IMG/VR virus record: IMGVR_UViG_2657245430_000003
DNA from: a virus
Taxonomy: Duplodnaviria > Heunggongvirae > Uroviricota > Caudoviricetes
DNA length: 36,167 bases
Direction: 5' to 3' (one strand)
Shown here one piece after another: positions 15,257-31,691 of this stretch (the first letter of the stretch is position 1; each line of letters begins with the position of its first letter). The position numbers and the translations under genes are program-made. The notes below the pieces were generated by a model. The model searched no databases, had not been told where the DNA came from, and saw nothing but the letters and a program-made list of their open reading frames with translations.

Positions 15257-15261
15257 ATCCC

Positions 15262-16005
15262 ATGACAGAGACAGAATCAGCGATTCTGGCGCACGCCCGG
15301 CGATGTGCTCCAGCGGAGTCGTGCGGCTTCGTGGTAAGAACGCCGGAGGGGGAAAGATATTTCCCCTGCGTGAATATCTCCGGTGAGCCGGAGGCGTATT
15401 TCCGTATGTCGCCGGAAGACTGGCTGCAGGCAGAGATGCAGGGTGAGATTGTGGCACTGGTCCACAGCCACCCCGGTGGTCTGCCCTGGCTGAGTGAGGC
15501 CGACCGGCGGCTGCAGGTGCAGAGTGATTTGCCGTGGTGGCTGGTCTGCCGGGGGGCGATTCACAAGTTCCGCTGTGTGCCACATCTTACCGGGCGGCGC
15601 TTTGAGCACGGGGTGACGGACTGTTACACGCTGTTCCGGGATGCTTACCATCTGGCGGGGATTGAGATGCCGGATTTTCATCGTGAGGATGACTGGTGGC
15701 GTCACGGTCAGAATCTCTATCTGGATAATCTGGAGGCCACAGGGCTGTATCAGGTGCCGTTGTCAGCGGCGCAGCCGGGCGATGTGCTGCTGTGCTGTTT
15801 TGGTTCATCGGTGCCGAATCATGCCGCCATTTACTGTGGTGACGGCGAGCTGCTGCACCATATTCCTGAACAACTGAGCAAACGAGAGAGGTATACCGAC
15901 AAATGGCAGCGACGCACACACTCCCTCTGGCGTCACCGGGCATGGCACGCATCTGCCTTTACGGGGATTTGCAACGATTTGGCCGCCGCATCGACCTTCG
16001 TGTGA
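15262..16005 (+). CDS. K: tail tip assembly protein K (MPN/JAMM and NlpC/P60 domains)
   Basis: 247-aa ORF with an HSHPGG...SEAD JAMM-like motif and a C-terminal Cys/His region. The C-terminus matches lambda K. Confidence 0.9.
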   Translation: MTETESAILAHARRCAPAESCGFVVRTPEGERYFPCVNISGEPEAYFRMSPEDWLQAEMQGEIVALVHSHPGGLPWLSEADRRLQVQSDLPWWLVCRGAIHKFRCVPHLTGRRFEHGVTDCYTLFRDAYHLAGIEMPDFHREDDWWRHGQNLYLDNLEATGLYQVPLSAAQPGDVLLCCFGSSVPNHAAIYCGDGELLHHIPEQLSKRERYTDKWQRRTHSLWRHRAWHASAFTGICNDLAAASTFV

Positions 16006-16253
16006 AAACGGGTGCCGAAGCCATCCGGGCGATGGCCACACAGCTCCCTGCGTTTCGTCAGAAGCTGAGCGACGGCTGGTATCAGGTGCGTATTGCCGGG
16101 CAGGATGTTAGCACGTCCGGATTAACGGCACAGTTACATGAGGCTCTGCCTGACGGCGCTGTGATTCATATTGTTCCCAGAGTCGCCGGGGCCAAGTCAG
16201 GTGGTGTATTCCAGATTGTCCTGGGAGCAGCCGCCATTGCCGGATCATTCTTT
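15903..16253 (+). CDS. I: tail tip assembly protein I, 3'-truncated at the N at 16254
   Basis: MAATHTLPLASPGMARICLYGDLQRFGRRIDLRVKTGAEAIRAMATQ..., overlapping the K 3' end as in lambda. The reading frame is cut by the scaffold join at 16254. Confidence 0.8.
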
Positions 16254-16254
16254 N

Positions 16255-16944
16255 ATTCCACAGGAAACACATCATGAGACGACACGCCTCACTCAGTCAG
16301 CCCAGGTGGTGCTCTGGGAAATCGATCTGACAGAGGTCGGTGGTGAACGTTATTTTTTCTGTAATGAGCAGAACGAAAAAGGTGAGCCGGTTACCTGGCA
16401 GGGGCGGCAGTATCAGGCATACCCCATTCAGGGGACGGGATTTGAACTGAACGGCAAGGGCAGTGCTGCCCGTCCGACACTGACGGTTTCTAACCTGCAC
16501 GGAATGGTCACCGGGATGGCGGAAGACCTGCAGAGTCTGGTCGGCGGAACGGTGGTCAGGCGTAAGGTTTACGCCCGTTTTCTGGATGCGGTGAACTTCG
16601 TCAACGGAAACAGCGACGCCGATCCGGAACAGGAGGTGATCAGCCGCTGGCGCATCGAGCAGTGCAGCGAACTGAGCGCGGTCAGTGCCTCTTTTGTGCT
16701 GGCCACACCAACGGAGACGGATGGCGCGGTTTTCCCGGGGCGTATCATGCTGGCGAATACCTGTATGTGGACTTACCGTTCTGATGAGTGTGGTTACACG
16801 GGCAGGGCAGTGGCTGACGAGTTCGACAAACCAACGACGGATATCCGGAAGGACAAATGCAGCAAGTGTATGCGCGGGTGTGAGTTGCGCAACAATACCG
16901 GTAATTTCGGCGGTTTCCTTTCCATCAATAAACTTTCTCAGTAA
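16255..16944 (+). CDS. L: tail tip protein L, second diverged copy, 5'-partial (contig starts near codon 5)
   Basis: ..QETHHETTRLTQSAQVVLWEIDLTEVGGERYFFCNEQ..., with scattered substitutions relative to the first L at 14558-15256. Begins immediately after the N at 16254. Confidence 0.8.
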   Translation: MPQETHHETTRLTQSAQVVLWEIDLTEVGGERYFFCNEQNEKGEPVTWQGRQYQAYPIQGTGFELNGKGSAARPTLTVSNLHGMVTGMAEDLQSLVGGTVVRRKVYARFLDAVNFVNGNSDADPEQEVISRWRIEQCSELSAVSASFVLATPTETDGAVFPGRIMLANTCMWTYRSDECGYTGRAVADEFDKPTTDIRKDKCSKCMRGCELRNNTGNFGGFLSINKLSQ

Positions 16945-16948
16945 ATCC

Positions 16949-17692
16949 ATGACACAGACAGAATCAGCGATTCTGGCGCACGCCCGGCGATGTGCGCCAG
17001 CGGAGTCGTGTGGCTTCGTGGTAAGAACGCCGGAGGGAGACAGGTATCTTCCCAGCGAGAATATCTCCGGTGAGCCGGAGGAACGGTTCCGGATGGCTCC
17101 GGAGGACTGGCTGCGGGCACAAATGCAGGGTGAGATTGTGGCGCTGGTCCACAGTCATCCCGGTGGTCTGCCCTGGCTGAGTGAGGCTGACCGGCGGCTG
17201 CAGGTGCAGAGTGATTTGCCGTGGTGGCTGGTCTGCCGGGGGGCGATTCACAAGTTCCGCTGTGTGCCACATCTTACCGGGCGGCGCTTTGAGCACGGGG
17301 TGACGGACTGTTACACGCTGTTCCGGGATGCTTACCATCTGGCGGGGATTGAGATGCCGGATTTTCATCGTGAGGATGACTGGTGGCGTCACGGTCAGAA
17401 TCTCTATCTGGATAATCTGGAGGCCACAGGGCTGTATCAGGTGCCGTTGTCAGCGGCGCAGCCGGGCGATGTGCTGCTGTGCTGTTTTGGTTCATCGGTG
17501 CCGAATCATGCCGCCATTTACTGTGGTGACGGCGAGCTGCTGCACCATATTCCTGAACAACTGAGCAAACGAGAGAGGTATACCGACAAATGGCAGCGAC
17601 GCACACACTCCCTCTGGCGTCACCGGGCATGGCACGCATCTGCCTTTACGGGGATTTGCAACGATTTGGCCGCCGCATCGACCTTCGTGTGA
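16949..17692 (+). CDS. K: tail tip assembly protein K, second copy
   Basis: MTQTESAILAHARRCAPAESCGFVVRTPEGDRYLPSENISGEPEERF..., 247 aa, start ATG at 16949. Confidence 0.85.
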   Translation: MTQTESAILAHARRCAPAESCGFVVRTPEGDRYLPSENISGEPEERFRMAPEDWLRAQMQGEIVALVHSHPGGLPWLSEADRRLQVQSDLPWWLVCRGAIHKFRCVPHLTGRRFEHGVTDCYTLFRDAYHLAGIEMPDFHREDDWWRHGQNLYLDNLEATGLYQVPLSAAQPGDVLLCCFGSSVPNHAAIYCGDGELLHHIPEQLSKRERYTDKWQRRTHSLWRHRAWHASAFTGICNDLAAASTFV

Positions 17693-18261
17693 AAACGGGT
17701 GCCGAAGCCATCCGGGCGATGGCCACACAGCTCCCTGCGTTTCGTCAGAAGCTGAGCGACGGCTGGTATCAGGTGCGTATTGCCGGGCAGGATGTTAGCA
17801 CGTCCGGATTAACGGCACAGTTACATGAGGCTCTGCCTGACGGCGCTGTGATTCATATTGTTCCCAGAGTCGCCGGGGCCAAGTCAGGTGGTGTATTCCA
17901 GATTGTCCTGGGAGCAGCCGCCATTGCCGGATCATTCTTTACCGCCGGAGCCACCCTTGCAGCATGGGGGGCTGCCATTGGTGCCGGTGGTATGACCGGC
18001 ATTCTGTTTTCTCTCGGTGCCAGTATGGTGCTCGGCGGTGTGGCTCAGATGCTGGCACCGAAAGCCAGAACTCCCCGCACACAGACAACGGATAACGGTA
18101 AGCAGAACACCTATTTCTCCTCACTGGATAACATGGTTGCCCAGGGCAATGTTATGCCTGTTCTGTATGGTGAAATGCGCGTGGGGTCACGTGTGGTATC
18201 TCAGGAGATCAGCACGGCAGACGAAGGGGACGGTGGTCAGGTTGTGGTGATTGGTCGCTGA
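17590..18261 (+). CDS. I: tail tip assembly protein I, second copy, full length
   Basis: 223 aa, the lambda gpI length. Gly/Ala-rich hydrophobic centre and conserved C-terminus ...VVSQEISTADEGDGGQVVVIGR. Confidence 0.88.
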   Translation: MAATHTLPLASPGMARICLYGDLQRFGRRIDLRVKTGAEAIRAMATQLPAFRQKLSDGWYQVRIAGQDVSTSGLTAQLHEALPDGAVIHIVPRVAGAKSGGVFQIVLGAAAIAGSFFTAGATLAAWGAAIGAGGMTGILFSLGASMVLGGVAQMLAPKARTPRTQTTDNGKQNTYFSSLDNMVAQGNVMPVLYGEMRVGSRVVSQEISTADEGDGGQVVVIGR

Positions 18262-18321
18262 TGCAAAATGTTTTATGTGAAATCGCCTCCGGGCGGTTTT
18301 ATCGTTTATGGAGCATGACGA

Positions 18322-18722
18322 ATGGGTAAAGGCAGCAGTAAGGGGCATACCCCGCGCGAAGCGAAGGACAACCTGAAGTCCACGCAGCTGCTGAGTGTGA
18401 TCGATGCCATCAGCGAAGGGCCGGTTGAAGGTCCGGTGGATGGATTAAAAAGCGTGCTGCTGAACAGTACGCCGGTGCTGGACAGTGAGGGGAATACCAA
18501 CATCTCCGGCGTCACGGTGGTGTTCCGGGCAGGTGAGCAGGAGCAGTCACCGCCGGAGGGATTTGAATCCTCCGGCTCCGAGACGGTGCTGGGTACGGAA
18601 GTGAAATATGACACGCCGATCACCCGGACCATCACGTCGGCAAACATTGACCGACTGCGTTTTACCTTCGGTGTACAGGCACTGGTGGAAACCACCTCAA
18701 AGGGAGACAGGAATCCGTCTGA
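18322..18722 (+). CDS. J: tail tip / host-specificity protein J, N-terminal fragment, truncated at the N at 18723
   Basis: [48 protein letters not shown].... After the N the frame continues into K sequence (EIVALVHSHPGG), which is a join artefact. Confidence 0.8.
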
Positions 18723-18723
18723 N

Positions 18724-19284
18724 GAGATTGTGGCGCTGGTCCACAGTCATCCCGGTGGTCTGCCCTGGCTGAGTGAGGCCGACCGGCGGCTGCAGGTGCA
18801 GAGTGATTTGCCGTGGTGGCTGGTCTGCCGGGGGGCGATTCACAAGTTCCGCTGTGTGCCGCATCTCACCGGGCGGCGCTTTGAGCACGGGGTGACGGAC
18901 TGTTACACGCTGTTCCGGGATGCTTATCATCTGGCAGGGATTGAGATGCCGGATTTTCATCGCGGGGATGACTGGTGGCGTAACGGTCAGAATCTCTATC
19001 TTGACAATATGGAGGTGACGGGTTTTTACCGTGTCGCACTGACAGAGGCACAGCCGGGCGATGTGCTGCTGTGCTGTTTTGGTTCATCGGTGCCGAATCA
19101 TGCCGCCATTTACTGTGGTGACGGCGAGCTGCTGCACCATATTCCTGAACAACTGAGCAAACGAGAGAGGTATACCGACAAATGGCAGCGACGCACACAC
19201 TCCCTCTGGCGTCACCGGGCATGGCACGCATCTGCCTTTACGGGGATTTGCAACGATTTGGCCGCCGCATCGACCTTCGTGTGA
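18724..19284 (+). CDS. K: tail tip assembly protein K, 5'-truncated fragment (residues about 62-247)
   Basis: EIVALVHSHPGGLPWLSEADRRLQVQSDLPWWLVCRG... to the stop at 19284. Starts right after the N. Confidence 0.8.
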   Translation, partial: EIVALVHSHPGGLPWLSEADRRLQVQSDLPWWLVCRGAIHKFRCVPHLTGRRFEHGVTDCYTLFRDAYHLAGIEMPDFHRGDDWWRNGQNLYLDNMEVTGFYRVALTEAQPGDVLLCCFGSSVPNHAAIYCGDGELLHHIPEQLSKRERYTDKWQRRTHSLWRHRAWHASAFTGICNDLAAASTFV

Positions 19285-19853
19285 AAACGGGTGCCGAAGC
19301 CATCCGGGCGATGGCCACACAGCTCCCTGCGTTTCGTCAGAAGCTGAGCGACGGCTGGTATCAGGTGCGTATTGCCGGGCAGGATGTTAGCACGTCCGGA
19401 TTAACGGCACAGTTACATGAGGCTCTGCCTGACGGCGCTGTGATTCATATTGTTCCCAGAGTCGCCGGGGCCAAGTCAGGTGGTGTATTCCAGATTGTCC
19501 TGGGAGCAGCCGCCATTGCCGGATCATTCTTTACCGCCGGAGCCACCCTTGCAGCATGGGGGGCTGCCATTGGTGCCGGTGGTATGACCGGCATTCTGTT
19601 TTCTCTCGGTGCCAGTATGGTGCTCGGCGGTGTGGCTCAGATGCTGGCACCGAAAGCCAGAACTCCCCGTACACAGACAACGGATAACGGTAAGCAGAAC
19701 ACCTATTTCTCCTCACTGGATAACATGGTTGCCCAGGGCAATGTTATGCCTGTTCTGTATGGTGAAATGCGCGTGGGGTCACGTGTGGTATCTCAGGAGA
19801 TCAGCACGGCAGACGAAGGGGACGGTGGTCAGGTTGTGGTGATTGGTCGCTGA
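19182..19853 (+). CDS. I: tail tip assembly protein I, third copy
   Basis: 223 aa, almost identical to the copy at 17590-18261. Confidence 0.85.
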   Translation: MAATHTLPLASPGMARICLYGDLQRFGRRIDLRVKTGAEAIRAMATQLPAFRQKLSDGWYQVRIAGQDVSTSGLTAQLHEALPDGAVIHIVPRVAGAKSGGVFQIVLGAAAIAGSFFTAGATLAAWGAAIGAGGMTGILFSLGASMVLGGVAQMLAPKARTPRTQTTDNGKQNTYFSSLDNMVAQGNVMPVLYGEMRVGSRVVSQEISTADEGDGGQVVVIGR

Positions 19854-19913
19854 TGCAAAATGTTTTATGTGAAATCGCCTCCGGGCGGTTTTATCGTTTA
19901 TGGAGCATGACGA

Positions 19914-21286
19914 ATGGGTAAAGGCAGCAGTAAGGGGCATACCCCGCGCGAAGCGAAGGACAACCTGAAGTCCACGCAGCTGCTGAGTGTGATCGATGCC
20001 ATCAGCGAAGGGCCGGTTGAAGGTCCGGTGGATGGATTAAAAAGCGTGCTGCTGAACAGTACGCCGGTGCTGGACAGTGAGGGGAATACCAACATCTCCG
20101 GCGTCACGGTGGTGTTCCGGGCAGGTGAGCAGGAGCAGTCACCGCCGGAGGGATTTGAATCCTCCGGCTCCGAGACGGTGCTGGGTACGGAAGTGAAATA
20201 TGACACGCCGATCACCCGGACCATCACGTCGGCAAACATTGACCGACTGCGTTTTACCTTCGGTGTACAGGCACTGGTGGAAACCACCTCAAAGGGAGAC
20301 AGGAATCCGTCTGAAGTTCGCCTGCTGGTTCAGATACAGCGTAACGGTGGCTGGGTGACGGAAAAAGACATCACCATTAAGGGCAAAACCACCTCGCAGT
20401 ATCTGGCCTCGGTGGTGGTGGATAACCTGCCGCCGCGCCCGTTTAATATCCGGATGCGCAGAATGACGCCGGACAGCACCACAGACCAGCTGCAGAACAA
20501 AACGCTCTGGTCGTCATACACCGAAATCATCGATGTGAAACAGTGCTACCCGAACACGGCACTGGTCGGCGTACAGGTGGATTCGGAGCAGTTCGGCAGC
20601 CAGCAGGTGAGCCGTAATTATCATCTTCGCGGGCGCATTCTGCAGGTGCCGTCGAACTATAACCCGCAGACGCGGCAATACAGCGGTATCTGGGACGGAA
20701 CGCTTAAGCCAGCATACAGCAACAACATGGCCTGGTGTCTGTGGGATATGCTGACCCATCCGCGCTATGGCATGGGGAAACGTCTTGGTGCGGCAGATGT
20801 GGATAAATGGGCGCTGTATGTCATCGGCCAGTACTGTGACCAGTCGGTGCCGGACGGCTTTGGCAGCACGGAGCCGCGCATCACCTGTAATGCCTGGCTG
20901 ACCACACAGCGCAAGGCGTGGGATGTGCTCAGTGATTTCTGCTCGGCGATGCGCTGTATGCCGGTATGGAACGGGCAGACGCTGACGTTCGTGCAGGACC
21001 GACAGTCGGATAAGGTGTGGGCCTATAACCGCAGTAATGTGGTGATGCCGGATGATGGCGCGCCGTTCCGCTACAGTTTCAGCGCCCTGAAAGACCGCCA
21101 TAATGCCGTTGAGGTGAACTGGATTGACCCGGATAACGGCTGGGAGACGGCGACAGAGCTTGTGGAGGATACGCAGGCCATTGCCCGTTACGGTCGTAAT
21201 GTCACGAAGATGGATGCCTTTGGCTGTACCAGCCGGGGGCAGGCACACCGCGCCGGGCTGTGGCTGATTAAAACGGAACTGCTGGA
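19914..21286 (+). CDS. J: J protein, N-terminal about 458 aa, truncated at the N-run 21287-21297
   Basis: Lambda-like J N-terminus through ...[11 protein letters not shown], then 11 Ns. Confidence 0.8.
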
Positions 21287-21297
21287 NNNNNNNNNNN

Positions 21298-21821
21298 TGC
21301 CCTGGCTGAGTGAGGCCGACCGGCGGCTGCAGGTGCAGAGTGATTTGCCGTGGTGGCTGGTCTGCCGGGGGGCGATTCACAAGTTCCGCTGTGTGCCGCA
21401 TCTCACCGGGCGGCGCTTTGAGCACGGGGTGACGGACTGTTACACGCTGTTCCGGGATGCTTATCATCTGGCAGGGATTGAGATGCCGGATTTTCATCGC
21501 GGGGATGACTGGTGGCGTAACGGTCAGAATCTCTATCTTGACAATATGGAGGTGACGGGTTTTTACCGTGTCGCACTGACAGAGGCACAGCCGGGCGATG
21601 TGCTGCTGTGCTGTTTTGGTTCATCGGTGCCGAATCATGCCGCCATTTACTGCGGTGACGGCGGGCTGCTGCACCATATTCCTGAACAACTGAGCAAACG
21701 AGAGAGGTACACCGACAAATGGCAGCGACGCACACACTCCCTCTGGCGTCACCGGGCATGGCGCGCATCTGCCTTTACGGGGATTTACAACGATTTGGTC
21801 GCCGCATCGACCTTCGTGTGA
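21298..21821 (+). CDS. K: tail tip assembly protein K, 5'-truncated fragment
   Basis: (L)PWLSEADRRLQVQ... to the stop. The C-terminus has RASAFTGIYNDLVAASTFV, as in lambda, unlike the other copies (HASAFTGICNDLAAASTFV). Confidence 0.8.
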
Positions 21822-22360
21822 AAACGGGGGCTGAAGCCATCCGGGCACTGGCCACACAGCTCCCGGCGTTTCGTCAGAAACTGAGTGACGGCTGGTATCA
21901 GGTGCGCATTGCCGGGCGTGATGCAGGTGAAACCGAATTGTCTGCCCGTCTTAATGAGCCGCTGGCAAATGGTGCAGTGATCCACATAGTACCGCGTCTG
22001 GTGGGAGCTAAAAGTGGCGGTGTGTTTCAGGCGGTGCTGGGGGCGGCTGTTATGGCGGTTGCTATATGGATGCCGGGGGTAGGAATTATGGCGAGTAATC
22101 TGCTGTTTTCTCTCGGTGCCAGTATGACGCTTGGCGGTGTTGCACAGATGCTGGCACCGAAAGCCAGAACTCCCCGTACACAGACAACGGATAACGGTAA
22201 GCAGAACACCTATTTCTCCTCACTGGATAACATGGTTGCCCAGGGCAATGTTCTGCCCGTTCTGTACGGTGAAATGCGCGTGGGGTCACGTGTGGTTTCT
22301 CAGGAGATCAGCACGGCAGACGAAGGGGACGGTGGTCAGGTTGTGGTGATTGGTCGCTGA
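21719..22360 (+). CDS. I: tail tip assembly protein I, variant 213-aa allele
   Basis: N- and C-termini conserved. The central segment (AGRDAGETELSARLNEPLANGAVIHIVPRLVGAKSGGVFQAVLGAAVMAVAIWMPGVGIMASNLL) differs from the other I copies, a mosaic pattern. Confidence 0.85.
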   Translation: MAATHTLPLASPGMARICLYGDLQRFGRRIDLRVKTGAEAIRALATQLPAFRQKLSDGWYQVRIAGRDAGETELSARLNEPLANGAVIHIVPRLVGAKSGGVFQAVLGAAVMAVAIWMPGVGIMASNLLFSLGASMTLGGVAQMLAPKARTPRTQTTDNGKQNTYFSSLDNMVAQGNVLPVLYGEMRVGSRVVSQEISTADEGDGGQVVVIGR

Positions 22361-22420
22361 TGCAAAATGTTTTATGTGAAACCGCCTGCGGGCGGTTTTG
22401 TCGTTTATGGAGCGTGAGGA

Positions 22421-24985
22421 ATGGGTAAAGGCAGCAGTAAGGGGCATACCCCGCGCGAAGCGAAGGACAACCTGAAATCCACGCAGTTGCTGAGTGTGAT
22501 TGATGCCATCAGCGAAGGGCCGGTTGACGGTCCGGTGGATGGATTAAAAAGCGTGCTGCTGAACGGTACGCCGGTCCTGGACAGCGAGGGGAAGACAAAC
22601 TTTTCCGGTGTTACGGTGGTGTTCCGTGCAGGTGAGCAGGAGCAGACACCGCCGGAGGGTTTTGAATCCTCCGGCTCCGAGACGGTGCTGGGTACGGAAG
22701 TGAAATATGACACGCCGATCACCCGGACCATCACGTCGGCAAACATCGACCGTCTGCGCCTGACCTTCGGTGTGCAGGCACTGGTGGAAACCACCTCAAA
22801 GGGTGACCGGAATCCGTCGGAAGTCCGCCTGCTGGTTCAGATACAGCGTAACGGTGGCTGGGTGACGGAAAAAGACATCACCATTAAGGGCAAAACCACC
22901 TCGCAGTATCTGGCCTCGGTGGTGGTGGATAACCTGCCGCCGCGCCCGTTTAATATCCGGATGCGCAGAATGACGCCGGACAGCACCACAGACCAGCTGC
23001 AGAACAAAACGCTCTGGTCGTCATACACCGAAATCATCGATGTGAAACAGTGCTACCCGAACACGGCGCTGGTCGGCGTGCAGGTGGATTCAGAGCAGTT
23101 CGGTAACCAGCAGGTGAGTCGCAATTATCATCTTCGCGGGCGCATTCTGCAGGTGCCGTCGAACTATAACCCGCAGACGCGGCAATACAGCGGTATCTGG
23201 GACGGAACGCTTAAGCCAGCATACAGCAACAACATGGCCTGGTGTCTGTGGGACATGCTCACTCATCCGCGCTACGGCATGGGGAAACGTCTTGGTGCGG
23301 CAGATGTGGATAAATGGGCGCTGTATGTCATCGGCCAGTACTGCGACCAGTCAGTGACGGACGGATTTGGCGGCACGGAGCCGCGCATCACCTGTAACTC
23401 TTACCTGACCACACAGCGTAAGGCGTGGGATGTTCTCAGTGATTTCTGCTCGGCGATGCGCTGTATGCCGGTATGGAACGGACAGATGCTGACGTTCGTG
23501 CAGGACCGACCGTCGGATAAGGTGTGGACCTATAACCGCAGTAATGTGGTGATGCCGGATGATGGCGCGCCGTTCCGCTACAGTTTCAGCGCCCTGAAAG
23601 ACCGCCATAATGCCGTTGAGGTGAACTGGATTGACCCAGATAACGGCTGGGAGACGGCGACAGAGCTTGTGGAGGATACGCAGGCCATTGCCCGTTACGG
23701 TCGTAATGTCACGAAGATGGATGCCTTTGGCTGTACCAGCCGGGGGCAGGCACACCGAGCCGGGCTGTGGCTGATTAAAACGGAACTGCTGGAAACGCAG
23801 ACCGTGGACTTCAGCGTGGGCGCAGAAGGGCTTCGCCATGTACCGGGTGATGTCATTGAAATCTGCGATGATGATTATGCCGGTATCAGCACCGGTGGTC
23901 GCGTACTGGCGGTGAACAGCCAGACCCGGACGCTGACGCTCGACCGTGAAATCACGCTGCCGTCCTCCGGTACCACGCTGATAAGCCTGGTTGACGGAAG
24001 TGGCAATCCGGTCAGCGTGGAGGTCCAGTCCGTCACCGACGGCGTGAAGGTGAAAGTGAGCCGGGTTCCTGACGGCGTTGCAGAATACAGCGTGTGGGGG
24101 CTGAAGCTGCCGACGCTGCGCCAGCGTCTGTTCCGCTGCGTGAGTATCCGTGAGAACGACGACGGCACGTATGCCATCACCGCCGTGCAGCATGTGCCGG
24201 AAAAAGAGGCCATCGTGGATAACGGGGCACACTTTGACGGTGACCGGCGCGGCACGGTGAATGGTGTCACGCCGCCAGCGGTGCAGCATCTGACCGCCGA
24301 AGTCACCGCAGACAGCGGGGAATATCAGGTGCTGGCGCGATGGGACACGCCGAAGGTGGTGAAGGGTGTGAGCTTCCTGCTTCGCCTGACCGTGGCAGCG
24401 GACGACGGCAGTGAGCGGCTGGTCAGCACAGCCAGGACGACGGAAACCACATACCGCTTCAGGCAGCTGGCGCTGGGGAATTACAGTCTGACAGTCCGGG
24501 CGGTAAATGCCCGGGGGCAGCAGGGCGATCCGGCGTCGGTATCGTTCCGGATTGCGGCACCGGCAGCGCCTGTCACTATTGAACTGATACCGGGGTATTT
24601 TCAGATAACGGCGGTCCCGAAACTGGCTGTATATGACCCGACGGTGCAGTTTGAGTTCTGGTTTTCGGAAAAGCGGATTGCGGATATCAGGCAGGTTGAA
24701 ACCAGCGCCCGCTATCTTGGCACGGCGCTGTACTGGATAGCCGCCAGTATCAATATCAGGCCGGGCCATGATTATTATTTTTACGTTCGCAGTGTGAACA
24801 CCGTTGGCAAATCGGCATTTGTGGAGGCCATCGGTCGGGCGAGCGATGATGCAGAAGGTTATCTGAATTTTTATAAAGGGTTGATCAATAAAACGCATCT
24901 CGGCAAGGAGTTGTGGACGCAGATTGATAACGGTCAGCTTGCGCCGGACCTGACTGAAATCAGGACGTCCATTACGAATGTCAGC
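22421..24985 (+). CDS. J: J protein, N-terminal about 855 aa, truncated at the N at 24986
   Basis: Longest continuous J segment. Ends ...[12 protein letters not shown] at the join. Confidence 0.85.
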
Positions 24986-24986
24986 N

Positions 24987-26424
24987 GGCTGGGAGACGGC
25001 GACAGAGCTTGTGGAGGATACGCAGGCCATTGTCCGTTACGGTCGTAACGTCACGAAGATGGATGCCTTTGGCTGTACCAGCCGGGGGCAGGCACACCGC
25101 GCCGGGCTGTGGCTGATTAAAACGGAACTGCTGGAGACGCAGACCGTGGATTTCAGCGTGGGTGCTGAAGGGCTTCGTCATGTACCGGGCGATGTCATTG
25201 AAATCTGCGATGATGACTATGCCGGTATCCGCACCGGCGGGCGCGTGCTGGCGGTGAACAGCCAGACCCGGACGCTGACGCTCGACCGTGAAATCACGCT
25301 GCCGTCCTCCGGTACCACGCTGATAAGCCTGGTTGACGGAAGTGGCAATCCGGTCAGCGTGGAGGTCCAGTCCGTCACCGACGGCGTGAAGGTGAAAGTG
25401 AGCCGGGTTCCTGACGGCGTTGCAGAATACAGCGTGTGGGGGCTGAAGCTGCCGACGCTGCACCAGCGATTGTTCCGCTGCGTGAGTATCCGTGAGAACG
25501 ACGACGGCACGTATGCCATCACCGCCGTGCAGCATGTGCCGGAAAAAGAAGCCATCGTGGATAACGGGGCGCACTTTGACGGCGACCAGAGCGGCACGGT
25601 GAATGGTGTCACGCCGCCAGCGGTGCAGCACCTGACTGCCGAAGTCACCGCAGACAGCGGGGAATATCAGGTGCTGGCGCGATGGGACACGCCGAAGGTG
25701 GTGAAGGGTGTGAGCTTCCTGCTTCGCCTGACCGTGGCAGCGGACGACGGCAGTGAGCGGCTGGTCAGCACAGCCAGGACGACGGAAACCACATACCGCT
25801 TCAGGCAGCTGGCGCTGGGGAATTACAGTCTGACAGTCCGGGCGGTAAATGCCCGGGGGCAGCAGGGCGATCCGGCGTCGGTATCGTTCCGGATTGCCGC
25901 ACCGGCAGCGCTGTCGCGGATTGAGCTGACGCCGGGCTATTTTCAGATAACCGCCACGCCGCATCTTGCGGTTTATGATCCGACGGTACAGTTTGAGTTC
26001 TGGTTCTCGGAAAAGCGGATTGCGGATATCAGGCAGGTTGAAACCACAGCACGCTATCTTGGCACGGCGCTGTACTGGATAGCCGCCAGTATCAATATCA
26101 AACCGGGCCATGATTATTACTTTTATATCCGCAGTGTGAACACCGTTGGCAAATCGGCATTCGTGGAGGCTGTTGGTCAGCCGAGTGATGATGCATCCGG
26201 TTATCTGGATTTTTTCAAAGGCGAGATAGGGAAAACCCATCTGGCTCAGGAGCTGTGGACGCAGATTGATAACGGTCAGCTTGCGCCTGACCTGGCTGAA
26301 ATCAGGACGTCCATTACGGATGTCAGCAATGAAATCACGCAGACCGTCAATAAGAAACTGGAAGACCAGAGTGCGGCAATTCAGCAGATACAGAAGGTTC
26401 AGGTTGATACAAATAATAACCTGA
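24987..26424 (+). CDS. J: J protein internal fragment (lambda J about residue 405 to 880), bounded by Ns on both sides
   Basis: [29 protein letters not shown] ... [11 protein letters not shown]. It re-covers J sequence already present at 23640-24985, with substitutions. Confidence 0.75.
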
Positions 26425-26425
26425 N

Positions 26426-27902
26426 CAGCACGGCCCGGACGACGGAAACCACTTACCGCTTCACACAACTGGCGCTGGGGAACTACAGGCTGACAGTCCG
26501 GGCAGTAAATGCGTGGGGGCAGCAGGGCGATCCGGCGTCGGTATCGTTCCGGATTGCGGCACCGGCAGCGCCTGTCACTATTGAACTGATACCGGGGTAT
26601 TTTCAGATAACGGCGGTCCCGAAACTGGCTGTATATGACCCGACGGTGCAGTTTGAGTTCTGGTTTTCGGAAAAGCGGATTGCGGATATCAGGCAGGTTG
26701 AAACCACAGCACGCTATCTTGGCACGGCGCTGTACTGGATAGCCGCCAGTATCAATATCAAACCGGGCCATGATTATTACTTTTATATCCGCAGTGTGAA
26801 CACCGTTGGCAAATCGGCATTCGTGGAGGCTGTTGGTCAGCCGAGTGATGATGCATCCGGTTATCTGGATTTTTTCAAAGGCGAGATAGGGAAAACCCAT
26901 CTGGCTCAGGAGCTGTGGACGCAGATTGATAACGGTCAGCTTGCGCCGGACCTGACTGAAATCAGGACGTCCATTACGAATGTCAGCAATGAAATCACGC
27001 AAACCGTCAATAAAAAACTGGAAAATCAGAGTGCTGCAATCCAGCAGATACAGAAAGTTCAGGTTGATACAAATAATAACCTGAACAGCATGTGGGCTGT
27101 GAAGCTGCAACAGATGAAGGACGGACGCCTTTATATTGCGGGTATCGGTGCCGGTATTGAGAATACGCCAGCAGGAATGCAGAGTCAGGTGCTGCTGGCG
27201 GCAGACAGGATTGCGATGATTAATCCTGCGAATGGCAACACAAAGCCGATGTTTGTTGGTCAGGGCGATCAGATATTCATGAACGACGTGTTCCTGAAAT
27301 GCCTGACGGCTCCGACCATTACCAGCGGCGGTAATCCTCCGGCATTTTCCCTGACACCTGGCGGACGGCTGACGGCGAAAAATGCCGATATCAGCGGTAA
27401 CGTGAACGCGAACTCCGGGACGCTCAACAACGTCACGATTAATAAGAACTGTCGGGTTCTGGGAAAATTGTCCGCGAACCAGATTGAAGGCGATCTCGTT
27501 AAAACAGTGGGCAAACCTTTCCCACGGGACTCCCGGGCACCGGAGAGGTGGCCATCAGGGACCATTACCGTCAGGGTTTATGACGATCAGCCGTTTGATC
27601 GGCAAATTGTTATTCCCGCGGTGGCGTTTCGCGGTGCTAAACATGAGCGGAAGAATAACAATATTTATTCGTCATGCCGCCTGATAGTGAAGAAAAACGG
27701 TGCTGAAATTTATAACCGAACGACCCTGGATAATACGCTGATATATACGGGTGTTATTGATATGCCTGCCGGTCACGGTCACATGACGCTGGAGTTTTCT
27801 GTATCGGCATGGCTGGTAAATGGCTGGTATCCCACAGCAAGTATCAGCGATTTGCTGGTTGTGGTGATGAAGAAAGCCACTGCAGGCATCACGATTAGCT
27901 GA
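26426..27902 (+). CDS. J: J protein C-terminal fragment (receptor-binding region, variant 1) ending at the native stop
   Basis: [33 protein letters not shown]... to ...[14 protein letters not shown]. The C-terminal roughly 150 aa differ from the variant at 29191-31040 and from lambda. Confidence 0.8.
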
Positions 27903-27921
27903 ATTTTATAACCCAGATACG

Positions 27922-27948
27922 GGCACCAGAAATGGTGCCTTTTTTATT
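27922..27948 (+). terminator. intrinsic terminator after J (variant 1)
   Basis: GGCACC-AGAAAT-GGTGCC stem-loop followed by TTTTTTATT. Confidence 0.7.
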
Positions 27949-27969
27949 GCAGAAAAGCGAGAGGTAATT

Positions 27970-28569
27970 ATGCGTAAAGTTTGTGCAGCCATTTTGTCCG
28001 CAGCCATTTGCCTGGCCGTATCCGGTGCGCCTGCATGGGCGTCTGAACATCAGTCCACGCTGAGCGCCGGGTATCTTCAGACCCATACTGATATGCCAGG
28101 CAGCGATGACCTGAAGGGCATTAACGTGAAATACCGTTATGAGTTTACGGACACGCTGGGGCTGATTACGTCATTCAGTTATGCCAACGCTGAAGATGAG
28201 CAAAAAACGCATTACAGCGATACCCGCTGGCATGAGGATTCCGTGCGTAACCGCTGGTTCAGCGTGATGGCGGGGCCGTCTGTGCGCGTGAATGAATGGT
28301 TCAGCGCGTATGCGATGGCGGGCGTGGCTTACAGCCGTGTGTCGACCTTCTCCGGGGATTATCTCCGCGTAACTGACAACAAGGGGAAAACGCACGATGT
28401 GCTGACCGGAAGTGATGGCGGTCGCCACAGCAACACGTCTCTGGCGTGGGGGGCTGGCGTGCAGTTTAACCCGACCGAATCCGTGGCCATTGACCTTGCT
28501 TATGAAGGTTCCGGCAGTGGTGACTGGCGCACTGACGGTTTCATCGTGGGTGTCGGTTATAAATTCTGA
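27970..28569 (+). CDS. lom: Lom-family (Ail/Lom/OmpX) outer-membrane beta-barrel protein
   Basis: 199 aa with a signal peptide (MRKVCAAILSAAICLAVSGAPAWA). The C-terminus ...AYEGSGSGDWRTDGFIVGVGYKF is identical to the lambda Lom C-terminus from memory. Position after J is as in lambda. Confidence 0.9.
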   Translation: MRKVCAAILSAAICLAVSGAPAWASEHQSTLSAGYLQTHTDMPGSDDLKGINVKYRYEFTDTLGLITSFSYANAEDEQKTHYSDTRWHEDSVRNRWFSVMAGPSVRVNEWFSAYAMAGVAYSRVSTFSGDYLRVTDNKGKTHDVLTGSDGGRHSNTSLAWGAGVQFNPTESVAIDLAYEGSGSGDWRTDGFIVGVGYKF

Positions 28570-28595
28570 TTAGCCAGGTAACACAGTGTTATGAC

Positions 28596-28622
28596 AGCCC
28601 GCCGGTTCAGGCGGGCTTTTTT
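28596..28622 (+). terminator. intrinsic terminator after lom
   Basis: AGCCCGCC-GGTTCA-GGCGGGCT stem followed by a run of 6 T. Confidence 0.8.
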
Positions 28623-28633
28623 GTGGGGTGAAT

Positions 28634-28960
28634 ATGGCAGTAAAGATTTCAGGTGTACTGAAAGATGGGGCGGGTAAACCTGTCGTAAATTGTGCGATTG
28701 AACTGCGGGCCAGAAGAACCAGTCCGACCGTTGTGGCACACGTTGTTGCCACTTGCGTGACGGACAATAACGGTGCTTATGTGATTGAGGCTGAGCCGGG
28801 GTATTACGAGGTTGCGCTTCACTGTAACGGCTGGCAGCCAACCCGTGTCGGGGATATTGATGTGGCACCGACTGATGCACCGGGGACACTGAACGCGTTT
28901 CTGAATGCACCAAAGGATGGTGATTTACGTCCGGAGGTGATGAAGTGTCAGCGCCAGTGA
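28634..28960 (+). CDS. short protein with a side-tail-fibre (Stf) N-terminal-like start, 108 aa, not followed by a fibre shaft
   Basis: [12 protein letters not shown](A/T)GKPV.NC.I.L.A.R matches the Stf N-terminus at 31692. It diverges in the middle and only ends with a different reading at the C-terminus (RPEVMKCQRQ*), the DNA match to stf breaking off after CGTCCGGAGG. An IS21-family transposase start lies 87 nt downstream. Confidence 0.6.
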   Translation: MAVKISGVLKDGAGKPVVNCAIELRARRTSPTVVAHVVATCVTDNNGAYVIEAEPGYYEVALHCNGWQPTRVGDIDVAPTDAPGTLNAFLNAPKDGDLRPEVMKCQRQ

Positions 28961-29046
28961 TATAAGACGGTAATTCGCCATTTGGATTGTCCGCTCCACC
29001 CAACATGTTGTTTCCTTAAGGTTCTCACACCAGAAAGGACATCAAC

Positions 29047-29189
29047 ATGCTGAGCAGAGAGGACTTTTACATGATAAAGCAAATGCGCCAGCAGGGCGCG
29101 TACATCGTCGATATTGCGACTCAGATTGGTTGCTCTGAACGGACGGTCAGACGCTACCTCAAATACCCTGAACCGCCAGCCAGAAAGAC
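29047..29189 (+). mobile_element. IS21-family transposase (IstA) 5' fragment, cut by the N at 29190
   Basis: MLSREDFYMIKQMRQQGAYIVDIATQIGCSERTVRRYLKYPEPPARK, the helix-turn-helix N-terminus typical of IS21-family IstA. The IS left end probably lies between 28961 and 29046 but I cannot place the terminal inverted repeat. Confidence 0.7.
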
Positions 29190-29190
29190 N

Positions 29191-31040
29191 CTGACGGCGT
29201 TGCAGAATACAGCGTGTGGGGGCTGAAGCTGCCGACGCTGCGCCAGCGTCTGTTCCGCTGCGTGAGTATCCGTGAGAACGACGACGGCACGTATGCCATC
29301 ACCGCCGTGCAGCATGTGCCGGAAAAAGAGGCCATCGTGGATAACGGGGCACACTTTGACGGTGACCGGCGCGGCACGGTGAATGGTGTCACGCCGCCAG
29401 CGGTGCAGCATCTGACCGCCGAAGTCACCGCAGACAGCGGGGAATATCAGGTGCTGGCGCGATGGGACACGCCGAAGGTGGTGAAGGGTGTGAGCTTCCT
29501 GCTTCGCCTGACCGTGGCAGCGGACGACGGCAGTGAGCGGCTGGTCAGCACAGCCAGGACGACGGAAACCACATACCGCTTCAGGCAGCTGGCGCTGGGG
29601 AATTACAGTCTGACAGTCCGGGCGGTAAATGCCCGGGGGCAGCAGGGCGATCCGGCGTCGGTATCGTTCCGGATTGCGGCACCGGCAGCGCCTGTCACTA
29701 TTGAACTGATACCGGGGTATTTTCAGATAACGGCGGTCCCGAAACTGGCTGTATATGACCCGACGGTGCAGTTTGAGTTCTGGTTTTCGGAAAAGCGGAT
29801 TGCGGATATCAGGCAGGTTGAAACCAGCGCCCGCTATCTTGGCACGGCGCTGTACTGGATAGCCGCCAGTATCAATATCAGGCCGGGCCATGATTATTAT
29901 TTTTACGTTCGCAGTGTGAACACCGTTGGCAAATCGGCATTTGTGGAGGCCATCGGTCGGGCGAGCGATGATGCAGAAGGTTATCTGAATTTTTATAAAG
30001 GGTTGATCAATAAAACGCATCTCGGCAAGGAGTTGTGGACGCAGATTGATAACGGTCAGCTTGCGCCTGACCTGGCTGAAATCAGGACGTCCATTACGGA
30101 TGTCAGCAATGAAATCACGCAGACCGTCAATAAGAAACTGGAAGACCAGAGTGCGGCAATTCAGCAGATACAGAAGGTTCAGGTTGATACAAATAATAAC
30201 CTGAACAGCATGTGGGCTGTGAAGCTGCAGCAGATGCAGGACGGACGCCTTTATATCGCGGGTATTGGTGCCGGTATTGAGAACACCCCTGACGGCATGC
30301 AGAGTCAGGTGCTGCTGGCGGCGGACAGGATTGCGATGGTTAATCCTGCGAATGGCAACACAAAACCGATGTTTGTTGGTCAGGGCGATCAGATATTCAT
30401 GAACGACGTGTTCCTGAAACGCCTGACGGCCCCCACCATTACCAGCGGTGGAAATCCATCGGCATTTTCCCTGACTCCGGACGGAAAGCTGACCGCTAAA
30501 AATGCGGATATCAGTGGCAGTGTGAATGCGAACGCCGGGACGCTCAACAATGTCACGGTAAATGAAAACTGTACGATTAAGGGCATGCTGGAGGCGACTC
30601 AGGTCAGAGGTGACTTCGTTAAAGCTGTATCCAAATCATTTCCGAAACAGGCTGGTACGTGGGGTAACACGGAAACACCAAACGGGACGGTTACAGTCAC
30701 CATAAGCGATGATCATAACTTTGACCGCCAGATTATTATTCCGCCCATTATTTTTAACGGTATAGCGTATGACGATCCGGGGAGCGGAAATAACCCAGGA
30801 GGCACGCGATACACGGGTTATGGTTTTGAAGTTCGCAAAAACGGCGTATTAATCGCATCCAGAGAAACTAAAGGTGCCATTCCCGGTAGTTACAGTGCAG
30901 TTATTGATATGCCTAGTGGTGGTGGTAGCGTCACTCTGGAGTTTAAGATTTTCCAGAAAGGCAATCAGGGGGCAGGCAATATCACCGACTGTACGGTGAT
31001 TGTGACCAAAAAAGCGGCTTCCGGCATCAGTATTCGTTGA
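29191..31040 (+). CDS. J: J protein C-terminal fragment (lambda J about residue 545 to end; receptor-binding region, variant 2)
   Basis: ..[29 protein letters not shown]... to ...[15 protein letters not shown]. The C-terminal domain differs from variant 1 (26426-27902) and from lambda. Confidence 0.85.
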
Positions 31041-31062
31041 AATATTTATAACCCCAATAAAT

Positions 31063-31680: not shown

Positions 31681-31691
31681 GTGGGGTGAAT

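What the first reader, a model, noticed from the sequence alone, without database searches (positions are those of the whole stretch)
16254..29190. Apparent repeats of L-K-I-J are scaffold joins between paralogous prophage contigs, not a biological amplification
Each N (16254, 18723, 21287-21297, 24986, 26425, 29190) coincides with a non-collinear jump: I into L, J into mid-K, J into mid-K, J into earlier J, J into earlier J, IS21 transposase into mid-J. The copies differ by scattered substitutions and by mosaic blocks (for example HASAFTGICNDLAAASTFV versus RASAFTGIYNDLVAASTFV at the K C-terminus). That is the pattern expected when several related lambdoid prophages in one genome are collapsed and chained by an assembler. 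It is a warning against reading any novel fusion protein or multi-copy tail-tip array here, and it tells us the source genome carries at least three or four lambdoid prophages.
Basis: seen in the sequence. Interest (0 to 1): 0.55.

Follow-up and report, generated by a model that had tools for sequence, protein, structure and literature searches.

The report
Assembly artefact in prophage tail genes
The apparent stack of repeated phage tail-tip genes is not biology: a short-read scaffolder and gap-filler chained and blended pieces of two similar prophages that lie about 690 kb apart in finished chromosomes carrying the same prophages, so no gene fusion or gene array here should be believed.

Summary
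Ns sit exactly at 16254, 18723, 21287-21297, 24986, 26425 and 29190, and each marks a backward jump in the lambda-type L-K-I-J-lom-stf order. The window is the whole of NCBI record CXFN01000043.1 (GCA_001256275.1), a draft scaffold that is almost certainly Shigella sonnei. In finished chromosomes the same genes form two single-copy modules about 690 kb apart: P1 (intact) and P2 (an IS-riddled remnant). None of the six junctions occurs in 5,426 complete E. coli genomes. Block B is 100% identical to an N-free contig from another assembly with the normal gene order. At all 2,421 calls at sites that tell P1 from P2, blocks B-G carry one of those two alleles, with no third allele and no private change. 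So the "copies" are P1/P2 mosaics, not three or four prophages. All 33 allele switches lie in stretches of at least 29 identical bases (0/60 crossings of 20-28-nt stretches, 15/62 of 29-39-nt stretches). That equals GapFiller's default overlap. This is a quality-control result of low biological interest.

The parts
1..16253 (+). Block A: ordinary lambda-like morphogenesis module (DUF1398 gene on the minus strand, Nu1, terminase A, portal, protease C, capsid E, tail tube V, tape measure H 853 aa, M, L, K, and I cut at codon 117). Pure P1.
   Evidence: Pfam/PHROG hits. 99.96-99.97% identical to complete-chromosome loci L010/L012/L013 up to its last base. 409 of 410 discriminating sites carry the P1 allele. 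The last 752 nt are identical to block B 17189-17940.
16254..16254 (.). Junction 1 (1 N): tail assembly gene I, codon 117, abuts L codon 4, out of frame.
   Evidence: 0 of 20,274 matching places in 5,426 complete E. coli genomes span it. The junction pattern is absent from genome contigs and viral contigs.
16255..18722 (+). Block B: L (lacking 3 codons)-K-I-J' (first 134 aa). P2 alleles at 16257-17188 (141 sites), P1 alleles at 17269-18720 (205 sites).
   Evidence: 100.000% identical over all 2,468 nt to N-free contig L026 (RTUZ01000132.1), where it lies inside a normal H'-M-L-K-I-J-stf-tfa module.
17189..17268 (+). 80-nt stretch identical in P1 and P2, inside gene K, where block B switches from P2 to P1. 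Block D carries the reciprocal switch (P1 to P2) in the same stretch, although only one discriminating site of D lies upstream of it.
18723..18723 (.). Junction 2 (1 N): J codon 134 abuts mid-K.
   Evidence: In complete genomes the two halves occur only in natural K-then-J order. E. coli FY26 has an analogous adjacency with different breakpoints.
18724..21286 (+). Block C: K' (C-terminal 186 aa)-I-J' (458 aa). A P2/P1 mosaic: 37 P2 and 218 P1 alleles in 10 runs.
   Evidence: B's last 644 nt are identical to C 19671-20314.
21287..21297 (.). Junction 3 (11 N): J codon 458 abuts mid-K.
21298..24985 (+). Block D: K' (173 aa)-I (213 aa)-J' (856 aa). Essentially P2: 353 of 366 sites.
   Evidence: 99.65% identical to the P2 locus L016 in CP023645.1 at ~1.955 Mb. 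Its I protein is encoded exactly there. Allele typing.
24986..24986 (.). Junction 4 (1 N): J jumps back 1,341 nt within J.
   Evidence: In complete genomes the two halves are always two pieces spanning ~1,341 nt in natural order.
24987..26424 (+). Block E: internal J fragment (479 aa, no start or stop). Alternates P1/P2/P1/P2/P1 (95 P1 and 29 P2 sites).
26425..26425 (.). Junction 5 (1 N): J jumps back ~659 nt within J.
26426..29189 (+). Block F: J C-terminus (491 aa)-lom (199 aa)-stf N-terminal 108 aa interrupted by IS21. The left ~500 nt is a P1/P2 mosaic and the rest is P2.
   Evidence: Aligns end to end with P2 locus L016 12706-15468, including the IS21 piece. Its lom protein is encoded exactly at the P2 locus.
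28957..29189 (+). Left end of an IS21-type element with istA codons 1-47 (ATG at 29047), inserted in the tail-fibre gene. The block ends here.
   Evidence: Sequence read; HTH domain hits. The E. coli match to block F stops at the insertion. In the complete genome istA continues (…GAAAGAC|CCGCCACAAA…) and a 1.27-kb multi-copy IS starts ~180 nt later.
29190..29190 (.). Junction 6 (1 N): istA codon 47 abuts mid-J.
   Evidence: The only candidate (L005) has J upstream of an intact IS21-like element, which is the opposite order.
29191..36167 (+). Block G: J C-terminus (615 aa)-lom' (160 aa)-stf (1,029 aa)-tfa (193 aa). P2 alleles at 29198-30033 (91 sites, first 877 nt identical to D), P1 alleles from 30068 on.
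   Evidence: The stf protein is encoded exactly in S. sonnei Ss046 CP000038.1, in an intact single-copy module.

Best explanation
The window is one draft scaffold (CXFN01000043.1). The source genome, almost certainly Shigella sonnei, carries two paralogous lambda-type tail modules. P1 is an intact prophage. P2 is an IS-flanked M-L-K-I-J-lom-stf'::IS21 remnant. In finished chromosomes they lie ~690 kb apart. They share many stretches of identical sequence, so short-read contigs break there and read pairs link contigs of one copy to contigs of the other. A scaffolder therefore laid P1 and P2 contigs one after another, ordered by where they end along the module. A k-mer gap filler then extended each contig edge into the supposed gaps. 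With only ~29 nt of context, the extension hopped between P1 and P2 wherever the two are identical for at least 29 nt. The two extensions never merged, so each gap shrank to a residual N (11 N in one case), leaving overlapping, slightly different 'copies' on either side. Shown here: the source record; the two parental loci and their separation; absence of the junctions from the complete genomes searched; the two-parent composition; the 29-nt threshold. Inferred: the particular programs (Velvet, SSPACE, GapFiller), based on the accession series and published defaults. An approximately single-copy P1 reading of the window is A 1-16253, B 17941-18722, C 20315-21286, E 25136-26424, G 30205-36167.
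For: (1) Every collinearity break is an N and every N is a break. (2) The window is a draft WGS record: L023 from CXFN01000043.1, length 36,167, is identical to window 6949-27692. (3) Complete chromosomes hold the same genes as single-copy modules. P1 is in CP000038.1, CP023645.1, CP022459.1 and CP104423.1; P2 is in CP023645.1 and CP104423.1, ~690 kb from P1. Block A's K protein lies in 99 index blocks whose contigs exceed 1 Mb, and in a single-copy module in all ten places listed. (4) No window junction exists in 5,426 complete E. coli genomes; candidates have the halves in natural, opposite order. (5) Block B is 100% identical to an N-free contig with natural context on both sides. (6) The difference maps show each 100-nt bin matching P1 or P2 with ~0 differences. 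There are 2,421 discriminating site calls with 0 third alleles and 0 private changes. (7) All 33 switches lie in identical zones of at least 29 nt: 0/60 crossings for 20-28 nt against 15/62 for 29-39 nt, Fisher p = 2.4e-5, with a flat rate above the threshold. GapFiller's default is a 29-nt overlap, extension from both edges, and closure only if the extensions overlap (PMC3446322). (8) The Sanger pipeline paper describes Velvet + SSPACE + 120 GapFiller iterations, warns of false joins, and lists 299 S. sonnei assemblies (PMC5320598). Neighbouring CXB* accessions are Holt et al. 2012 S. sonnei. (9) Sister scaffold CWTP01000056.1 has 250-274-N gaps at equivalent places. Three of its inter-gap pieces are pure P1 or P2 and one carries only the B-type switch; one piece (p2) could not be typed. 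(10) Block ends lie inside long exact repeats shared with neighbouring blocks (752, 644, 355 and 877 nt) or in IS21. (11) All genes at junctions are truncated and out of frame.
Against: No reads were available, so no junction was tested directly. The assembly programs are inferred, not documented for this record; a de Bruijn k of 27-29 would give the same threshold, and only three zone crossings of 27-28 nt exist, so the threshold is bracketed as 27-29 rather than proven to be 29. Block B's P2-to-P1 switch is reproduced in N-free contigs of at least six other assemblies, so that one hybrid may be real rather than in silico. Overlaps of 660-2,500 nt exceed what gap filling alone would add, so most of the duplication must come from the scaffolder placing paralogous contigs side by side. 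Zone crossings from overlapping blocks are not fully independent. The organism name of CP023645.1 could not be confirmed in the literature.
Confidence: 0.96

Rival explanations
1. One reading: each block is a clean contig from a different lambdoid prophage, so the genome holds at least three or four such prophages, chained by the assembler.
For: Up to four blocks overlap at some positions (A, B, C, D over K-I; D, E, F, G over mid-J) and differ from one another. Many E. coli genomes do carry several such modules: median 3-4, maximum 14-18 places per genome.
Against: 0 of 2,421 discriminating site calls carry a third allele, and there are no private substitutions. Independent paralogues at the usual 2-8% divergence would add hundreds. 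Blocks alternate between the two parental sequences. Only P1 and P2 contexts were recovered from complete chromosomes.
Confidence: 0.05
2. The Ns are false joins, but the P1/P2 mosaics inside the blocks are real products of recombination or gene conversion between the two prophages in this lineage. In particular, B (P2 left, P1 right) and D (P1 left, P2 right) would be the reciprocal products of one crossover in the 80-nt stretch.
For: B's switch is found unchanged in N-free contigs of six or more other assemblies, one of them shared by 17 samples, and in sister scaffold L024. B and D switch in the same zone in opposite senses. RecA-type recombination also needs a minimum length of identity (my own knowledge).
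Against: The step at 29 nt with a flat rate above it fits a fixed-k algorithm better than recombination, whose frequency rises with length. E and F flip 4-7 times within 0.5-1.4 kb. The sister scaffold with unfilled gaps lacks these patches. The hybrid K protein is in no contig over 50 kb, although only ~1.2 would be expected. D's P1 side rests on a single site 20 nt from its start.
Confidence: 0.2
3. It is an artefact from a different pipeline, for example contigs ordered against a reference genome and concatenated with placeholder Ns, with the mosaics produced by bubble-collapsing in a de Bruijn assembler with k of about 29.
For: The blocks are in strictly ascending order of their end coordinates on P1, as reference ordering would give. 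E. coli FY26 shows the same geometry without any Ns. A k of 27-29 fits the threshold equally well.
Against: Sister records in neighbouring accession series have 250-274-N gaps typical of read-pair gap estimates. The published pipeline for such S. sonnei assemblies uses SSPACE and GapFiller, and GapFiller's default of 29 matches exactly.
Confidence: 0.15
4. It is a real tandem amplification, or a cassette array of tail-tip genes used to vary host range, within one prophage.
For: Tail-tip and fibre genes are known targets of diversification (my own knowledge). FY26 and S. sonnei 75/02 show N-free repeats of these genes in records labelled complete.
Against: All six junctions differ, each carries an N, and all truncate genes out of frame. 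None is found in 5,426 complete genomes. There is no invertase or reverse transcriptase and no inverted repeat. The units have no common boundaries. 75/02 was itself assembled from short reads with SSPACE, and FY26 has the same staggered geometry.
Confidence: 0.01
5. The variants come from a mixed culture or strain heterogeneity rather than from two loci in one genome.
For: Overlapping near-identical blocks could in principle be alleles from two strains.
Against: Both parental sequences coexist in single finished chromosomes at distinct sites (CP023645.1, CP104423.1). P1 and P2 differ by up to 50% locally and have different flanks (IS elements against head genes), so they are paralogues, not alleles.
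Confidence: 0.02

Closest known systems
False joins and duplicated flanks around residual gaps in scaffolded, gap-filled short-read assemblies (Velvet + SSPACE + GapFiller; Page et al. 2016, PMC5320598; Boetzer & Pirovano 2012, PMC3446322)
   Same: Ns at every join. Contigs of paralogous repeats are linked by read pairs. Edges are extended from both sides with a 29-nt overlap. Gaps are left open when the extensions fail to merge. The authors themselves warn of false joins and of repeats as the hard cases.
   Different: The use of this pipeline for this record is inferred, not documented. The step-like 29-nt signature in the chimeras is something I derived here and did not find described in those papers.
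Phage lambda tail-tip and side-fibre module (M-L-K-I-J-lom-stf-tfa)
   Same: Each block taken alone has the canonical order and domains: Phage_min_tail, Phage_tail_L, JAB/NlpC-P60 K, Lambda_tail_I, J with FNIII/Ig/tip/receptor-binding domains, Ail/Lom, phage_tail_N fibre, Caudo_TAP.
   Different: In the window the module is cut and restarted six times. The natural loci have exactly one copy of each gene.
Multiple near-identical lambdoid prophages in Shigella/E. coli chromosomes as an obstacle to short-read assembly
   Same: Two paralogous modules with long identical stretches. IS elements at contig ends. Many complete E. coli genomes hold 3-18 such places.
   Different: Only two parental sequences are needed here, not the many of, for example, O157-type genomes.
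Genuine tail-fibre variation systems (invertible G/C segments of Mu/P1, diversity-generating retroelements)
   Same: They also involve extra partial copies of receptor-binding gene segments.
   Different: They need inverted repeats plus an invertase, or a template repeat plus a reverse transcriptase. None is present, and all repeats here are direct, staggered and bounded by Ns.

Membership tests
Scaffolding / gap-closure artefact | Every non-collinear junction coincides with an unresolved base (N), and vice versa | tested here: met
   Six N sites and six breaks, with alignment ends falling on the Ns.
Scaffolding / gap-closure artefact | The sequence comes from a scaffolded draft assembly | tested here: met
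   The window is WGS record CXFN01000043.1 of GCA_001256275.1. Sister records carry 250-274-N gaps.
Scaffolding / gap-closure artefact | Junctions are absent from gap-free genomes, while each block alone is collinear with natural loci | tested here: met
   junctions; blocks; B is 100% identical to an N-free contig.
Scaffolding / gap-closure artefact | The extra copies contain no sequence beyond that of the true paralogues | tested here: met
   2,421 of 2,421 discriminating site calls are P1 or P2 alleles, with 0 private changes.
Scaffolding / gap-closure artefact | The specific programs used (SSPACE/GapFiller) | tested here: inconclusive
   The switch threshold is bracketed at 27-29 nt and matches GapFiller's default m = 29. 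The pipeline is inferred from the accession series and PMC5320598. No metadata for this record was available.
Scaffolding / gap-closure artefact | No reads or read pairs of normal geometry span the junctions; depth is consistent with two copies | not testable with these tools
Tandem gene amplification | Units share the same boundaries, so one novel junction recurs between units | tested here: not met
   Six different junctions, and units of 1.4-3.7 kb with staggered starts and ends.
Tandem gene amplification | Uninterrupted sequence across the unit junctions | tested here: not met
   Every junction is an N.
Invertible-segment or DGR tail-fibre variation | Site-specific invertase with inverted repeats, or reverse transcriptase with template/variable repeats | tested here: not met
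   No minus-strand self-matches. Only one weak 25-nt inverted repeat, far from the genes. No recombinase or RT domain among the main ORFs searched directly or in the precomputed Pfam lists of the matching natural loci. Not every small ORF in the window was scanned.
Lambda-type tail-tip module (per block) | Gene order M-L-K-I-J-lom-stf-tfa with the corresponding domains | tested here: met
   PHROG and Pfam hits. Identical order in the natural loci.

The most novel reading that the evidence does not exclude
The single P2-to-P1 switch in block B (window 17189-17268), and its reciprocal at the start of block D, are not in silico. They would then record a real crossover between the two prophages, ~690 kb apart, in a Shigella sonnei sublineage. 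That would imply a large chromosomal rearrangement or duplication and a genuine hybrid K (tail-tip peptidase) gene, seen so far only in draft assemblies.
Probability: 0.2. Interest if true: 0.2.

Novelty: not a real feature. Interest (0 to 1): 0.1.

Why it matters
The result matters as a warning, not as biology. The record is public, and gene callers have already turned its junctions into "proteins": ORFs of 320, 635, 875 and 963 aa running across the Ns appear in the gene list of the public collection, with no Pfam entry on record. Hybrid K and J sequences that may never have existed can therefore seed protein clusters, inflate prophage counts, and suggest false tail-tip fusions or host-range cassettes. 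The work also gives a practical way to diagnose such cases without reads. Type every site against the two parental paralogues and look for (a) no third alleles and (b) a hard minimum length of identity at the switches equal to an assembler's k. Similar scrambles occur in sister draft records, and at least one record labelled "complete" (E. coli FY26) shows the same geometry.

Tried and rejected
(1) Exact-pattern scans for junction 1 in genome contigs and viral contigs, and for the stf::IS21 insertion junction in genome contigs, found nothing. The source lineage is not among the species representatives, and it is unclear whether a pattern N matches a target N.

(2) Whole-block searches against complete E. 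coli genomes gave only 94-97% identity. That collection excludes Shigella, so it could test the junctions but could not identify the parents.

(3) Records with both junction halves close together (H47-H50, H53, H54, H75) looked like possible natural junctions. Local alignment showed the natural, opposite order or deletion remnants.

(4) E. coli FY26 ("complete genome", no Ns) at first looked like independent support for a real K-I-J array. I rejected it because it has the same staggered-overlap geometry, includes M-L'-M-L' and a second phage's head genes in the chain, and its breakpoints differ from the window's.

(5) I considered the tandem P2 duplication in S. sonnei 75/02 as a positive control for real amplification. 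I dropped it because that genome was built from Illumina mate pairs with SSPACE.

(6) I tried to decide whether the hybrid K of block B is real from its absence in complete genomes. This has no power: about 1.2 would be expected and 0 were observed.

(7) A literature look-up of CP023645 found nothing.

(8) The --keeplength alignment of piece p2 of L024 misaligned, so I ignored it and that piece remains untyped.

Full report
OBSERVATION. The window contains 16 Ns: single Ns at 16254, 18723, 24986, 26425 and 29190, and a run of 11 at 21287-21297. They divide it into seven blocks: A 1-16253, B 16255-18722, C 18724-21286, D 21298-24985, E 24987-26424, F 26426-29189 and G 29191-36167. A self-BLAST shows that all repeated segments are direct and that their alignments stop or start exactly at the Ns. 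Each block begins at a point homologous to somewhere upstream of the previous block's end and then runs beyond that end. The overlaps are 660-2,500 nt at 91-99.7% identity.

Gene content is the lambda tail-tip module:
- A ends with M, L, K and the first 117 codons of I.
- B is L (minus 3 codons)-K-I-J'(134 aa).
- C is K'(186 aa)-I-J'(458 aa).
- D is K'(173 aa)-I-J'(856 aa).
- E is an internal 479-aa piece of J.
- F is the J C-terminus-lom-stf', interrupted by an IS21-type element whose istA is cut at codon 47.
- G is the J C-terminus-lom'-stf-tfa.

Every junction truncates genes and breaks the frame.

SOURCE AND NATURAL COUNTERPARTS. Exact-protein look-ups found the record itself. L023, from NCBI GCA_001256275.1 record CXFN01000043.1 (length 36,167), is identical to window 6949-27692, Ns included. 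G's 1,029-aa tail fibre is encoded exactly in CP000038.1, which is Shigella sonnei Ss046 (PMC5447701). There it lies in an intact H-M-L-K-I-J(1,165 aa)-lom(160 aa)-stf module. Block A matches that module in CP000038.1, CP023645.1 and CP022459.1 at 99.96-99.97% up to its last base. I call this locus P1. D's I protein (213 aa) and F's Lom (199 aa) are encoded at a second locus of the same chromosome CP023645.1, near 1.955 Mb against 1.27 Mb for P1, and likewise in CP104423.1. I call this locus P2. It is an IS-flanked M-L-K-I-J(1,159 aa)-lom-stf'::IS21' remnant. So in finished chromosomes these genes form two single-copy modules about 690 kb apart. Block A's K protein is in 5,044 index blocks, 99 of them on contigs over 1 Mb, and it sits in a single-copy module in all ten places listed.

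JUNCTION TESTS. I searched 601-611-nt queries centred on each N against 5,426 complete E. coli genomes.
- Junction 1 is spanned by 0 of 20,274 places.
- For junctions 2, 3 and 6, only 4, 2 and 1 records have both halves within reach.
- For junctions 4 and 5, thousands do, but always as two pieces spanning ~1,341 and ~665 nt, the natural distances within J.

Local alignment of the candidates shows the right half upstream of the left half in every ordinary genome, which is the natural order or a deletion remnant. The one exception, E. coli FY26 (NZ_CP101741.1), has an analogous adjacency with different breakpoints. It is discussed below. Block B is 100.000% identical over its whole length to an N-free 11.3-kb contig from another assembly (L026), where it is flanked by M upstream and the rest of J downstream. 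Both ends of B are therefore arbitrary cuts in continuous natural sequence. F's natural continuation in P2 is more istA sequence, followed ~180 nt later by a multi-copy 1.27-kb IS, not mid-J.

TWO PARENTS ONLY. Difference maps in 100-nt bins show that each bin of each block matches P1 or P2 with essentially no differences. I then typed every site at which P1 and P2 (both from CP023645.1) differ:

| Block | P1 alleles | P2 alleles | Pattern |
|---|---|---|---|
| A | 409 | 1 | pure P1 |
| B | 205 | 141 | P2 then P1, one switch |
| C | 218 | 37 | 10 runs |
| D | 13 | 353 | essentially P2 |
| E | 95 | 29 | 5 alternating runs |
| F | 52 | 749 | 8 runs |
| G | 438 | 91 | P2 then P1, one switch |

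In B-G there are 2,421 site calls in all. None carries a third allele, and there are no private substitutions where P1 and P2 agree. Independent paralogues would carry many private differences. A P1-like single-copy path can be threaded through the window: A, then B from 17941, C from 20315, E from 25136, G from 30205. E still contains P2 patches.

HOW THE CHIMERAS AROSE. Block ends lie inside long exact repeats shared with neighbouring blocks: A's last 752 nt equal B; B's last 644 nt equal C; D's first 355 nt equal C; G's first 877 nt equal D. One block ends in an IS. These are the places where short-read contigs fork.

All 33 allele switches lie in stretches where P1 and P2 are identical for at least 29 nt. 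None lies among the 2,275 shorter stretches crossed, although those hold 56% of the identical bases. The threshold is sharp. Crossings of 20-28-nt stretches give 0 switches in 60, and crossings of 29-39-nt stretches give 15 in 62 (Fisher p = 2.4e-5). The rate above 29 nt is flat at about 0.15-0.33, regardless of length. With 0/21 at 26 nt, only three crossings at 27-28 nt, and 1/11 at 29 nt, the threshold is bracketed at 27-29 nt.

The GapFiller paper states a default overlap of 29 nt (k = 30), extension from both gap edges one base at a time by majority vote, and closure only if the two extensions overlap and the length fits the estimate (PMC3446322). The Sanger high-throughput pipeline runs Velvet, then SSPACE, then 120 iterations of GapFiller. 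Its paper calls these greedy algorithms that can make false joins, and lists 299 public S. sonnei assemblies (PMC5320598). S. sonnei records in the neighbouring CXB* accession series are attributed to Holt et al. 2012.

A sister scaffold, CWTP01000056.1 (L024), still has 250-274-N gaps at the equivalent places. Three of its inter-gap pieces are pure P1 or pure P2, and one carries only the B-type switch. One piece could not be typed. The fine mosaics appear only in the record whose gaps were shrunk to one N.

I therefore infer the following, without documentation for this record. Read pairs linked P1 and P2 contigs. The scaffolder ordered them along the module. Gap filling then extended the edges with 29-nt context, hopping between the paralogues and never merging. 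The size of the overlaps shows that most of the duplication comes from the false side-by-side placement of paralogous contigs, and gap filling added the patchwork.

WHAT REMAINS OPEN. B's single switch (P2 to P1, in the 80-nt identical stretch at window 17189-17268) is reproduced in N-free contigs of at least six other assemblies and in L024. D starts with the reciprocal configuration, although this rests on one discriminating site 20 nt from D's start. This hybrid could be a real inter-prophage crossover in a sublineage. Its K protein occurs in 60 index blocks and in no contig over 50 kb, but only ~1.2 would be expected, so that test has no power. This does not affect the verdict on the Ns.

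RIVALS.
- A real tandem array or variation cassette is excluded for practical purposes. The six junctions are all different, N-bounded and frame-breaking. The units have no shared boundaries. There are no inverted repeats and no invertase or reverse transcriptase. No junction is found in the complete genomes searched.
- A mixed culture is unlikely, because both parents coexist, with different flanks, in single finished chromosomes.
- Reference-guided contig ordering or a k of about 29 in the assembler is a possible alternative route to the same artefact.

COMPARISON AND NOVELTY. Each block is an ordinary piece of a lambda-type tail module in a Shigella prophage. The arrangement is a known class of assembly error. 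Nothing here is a new biological feature. The only mildly new element is methodological: the gap filler's overlap length can be read back from the chimeras. Interest is low. The value is as a warning, because ORFs spanning the Ns have already been called as genes in public collections.

Noticed in passing
L004 (E. coli FY26, NZ_CP101741.1 4125000-4172000), breaks near 5223, 5968, 24305, 27392, 29134 and 32156: A record labelled 'complete genome', with no Ns, shows the same staggered scramble: H-M-L'-M-L', then another phage's lysis and head genes to J', then M-L-K-I-J', K-I-J', K'-I-hyp-J', J'-lom-stf'-transposase'. It is probably a pseudo-molecule of concatenated contigs. Its many 'partial in the middle of a contig' pseudogenes fit that reading.
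   Followed up: partly
L017/L018/L035/L036 (S. sonnei 75/02, CP019689.1 ~4.617-4.652 Mb); L017 6232-11225 against 15649-20642: The IS-flanked P2 module (H'-M-L-K-I-J-lom) is present twice in tandem (period 9,417 nt, 99.96% identical) in a 'complete' genome. That genome was assembled from Illumina mate pairs with CLC + SSPACE + gap closure (PMC5447701), so the duplication may be IS-mediated and real, or another assembly product.
   Followed up: partly
L024 (CWTP01000056.1) N runs 8494-8743, 10890-11154, 12242-12514, 13468-13741; L011 (CXFU01000079.1, 32 Ns): Sister draft scaffolds from neighbouring accession series chain P1 and P2 pieces in the same way (L024), or repeat tail-fibre fragments of 359, 357, 1,029 and 715 aa (L011). 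The artefact is systematic in this set of assemblies.
   Followed up: partly
window 18322-19284, 19914-21821, 22421-25048, 24978-27902 (in L023: 11374-12336, 12966-14873, 15473-18100, 18063-20744): ORFs that run across the Ns (320, 635, 875 and 963-974 aa J-K or J-J 'fusions') are present as called genes in the public gene collection, with no Pfam entry on record. These are spurious proteins propagated from this scaffold.
   Followed up: partly
window 16949-17692 (K of block B); L025-L030: A hybrid K protein (P2 N-terminal third, P1 remainder) is found in 60 index blocks, all draft contigs of at most 50 kb. One 11.3-kb contig is shared by 17 samples. It is either a real recombinant in a sublineage or a reproducible chimera.
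   Followed up: partly
window 28634-29189; L016 14881-15649: The P2 side-fibre gene is cut after ~108 codons by an IS21-type element. That element is itself truncated ~180 nt further on by a 1.27-kb IS present in three or more copies around P2. P2 is a heavily IS-eroded prophage remnant, and the same insertion is conserved in complete chromosomes.
   Followed up: yes
window 31111-31593: The lom gene of block G / P1 encodes 160 aa instead of 199 aa (premature stop). Genes of the same 160-aa size are called at this position in S. sonnei Ss046 and another complete chromosome, so this appears to be a real, conserved truncation.
   Followed up: partly
window 14656: A single site in block A carries the P2 allele amid 409 P1 alleles. 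It is either a strain SNP that happens to match P2 or a one-site conversion.
   Followed up: no
window 230-655 (minus strand): A DUF1398-family gene lies upstream of the terminase genes on the opposite strand. It is an ordinary lambdoid accessory gene.
   Followed up: no
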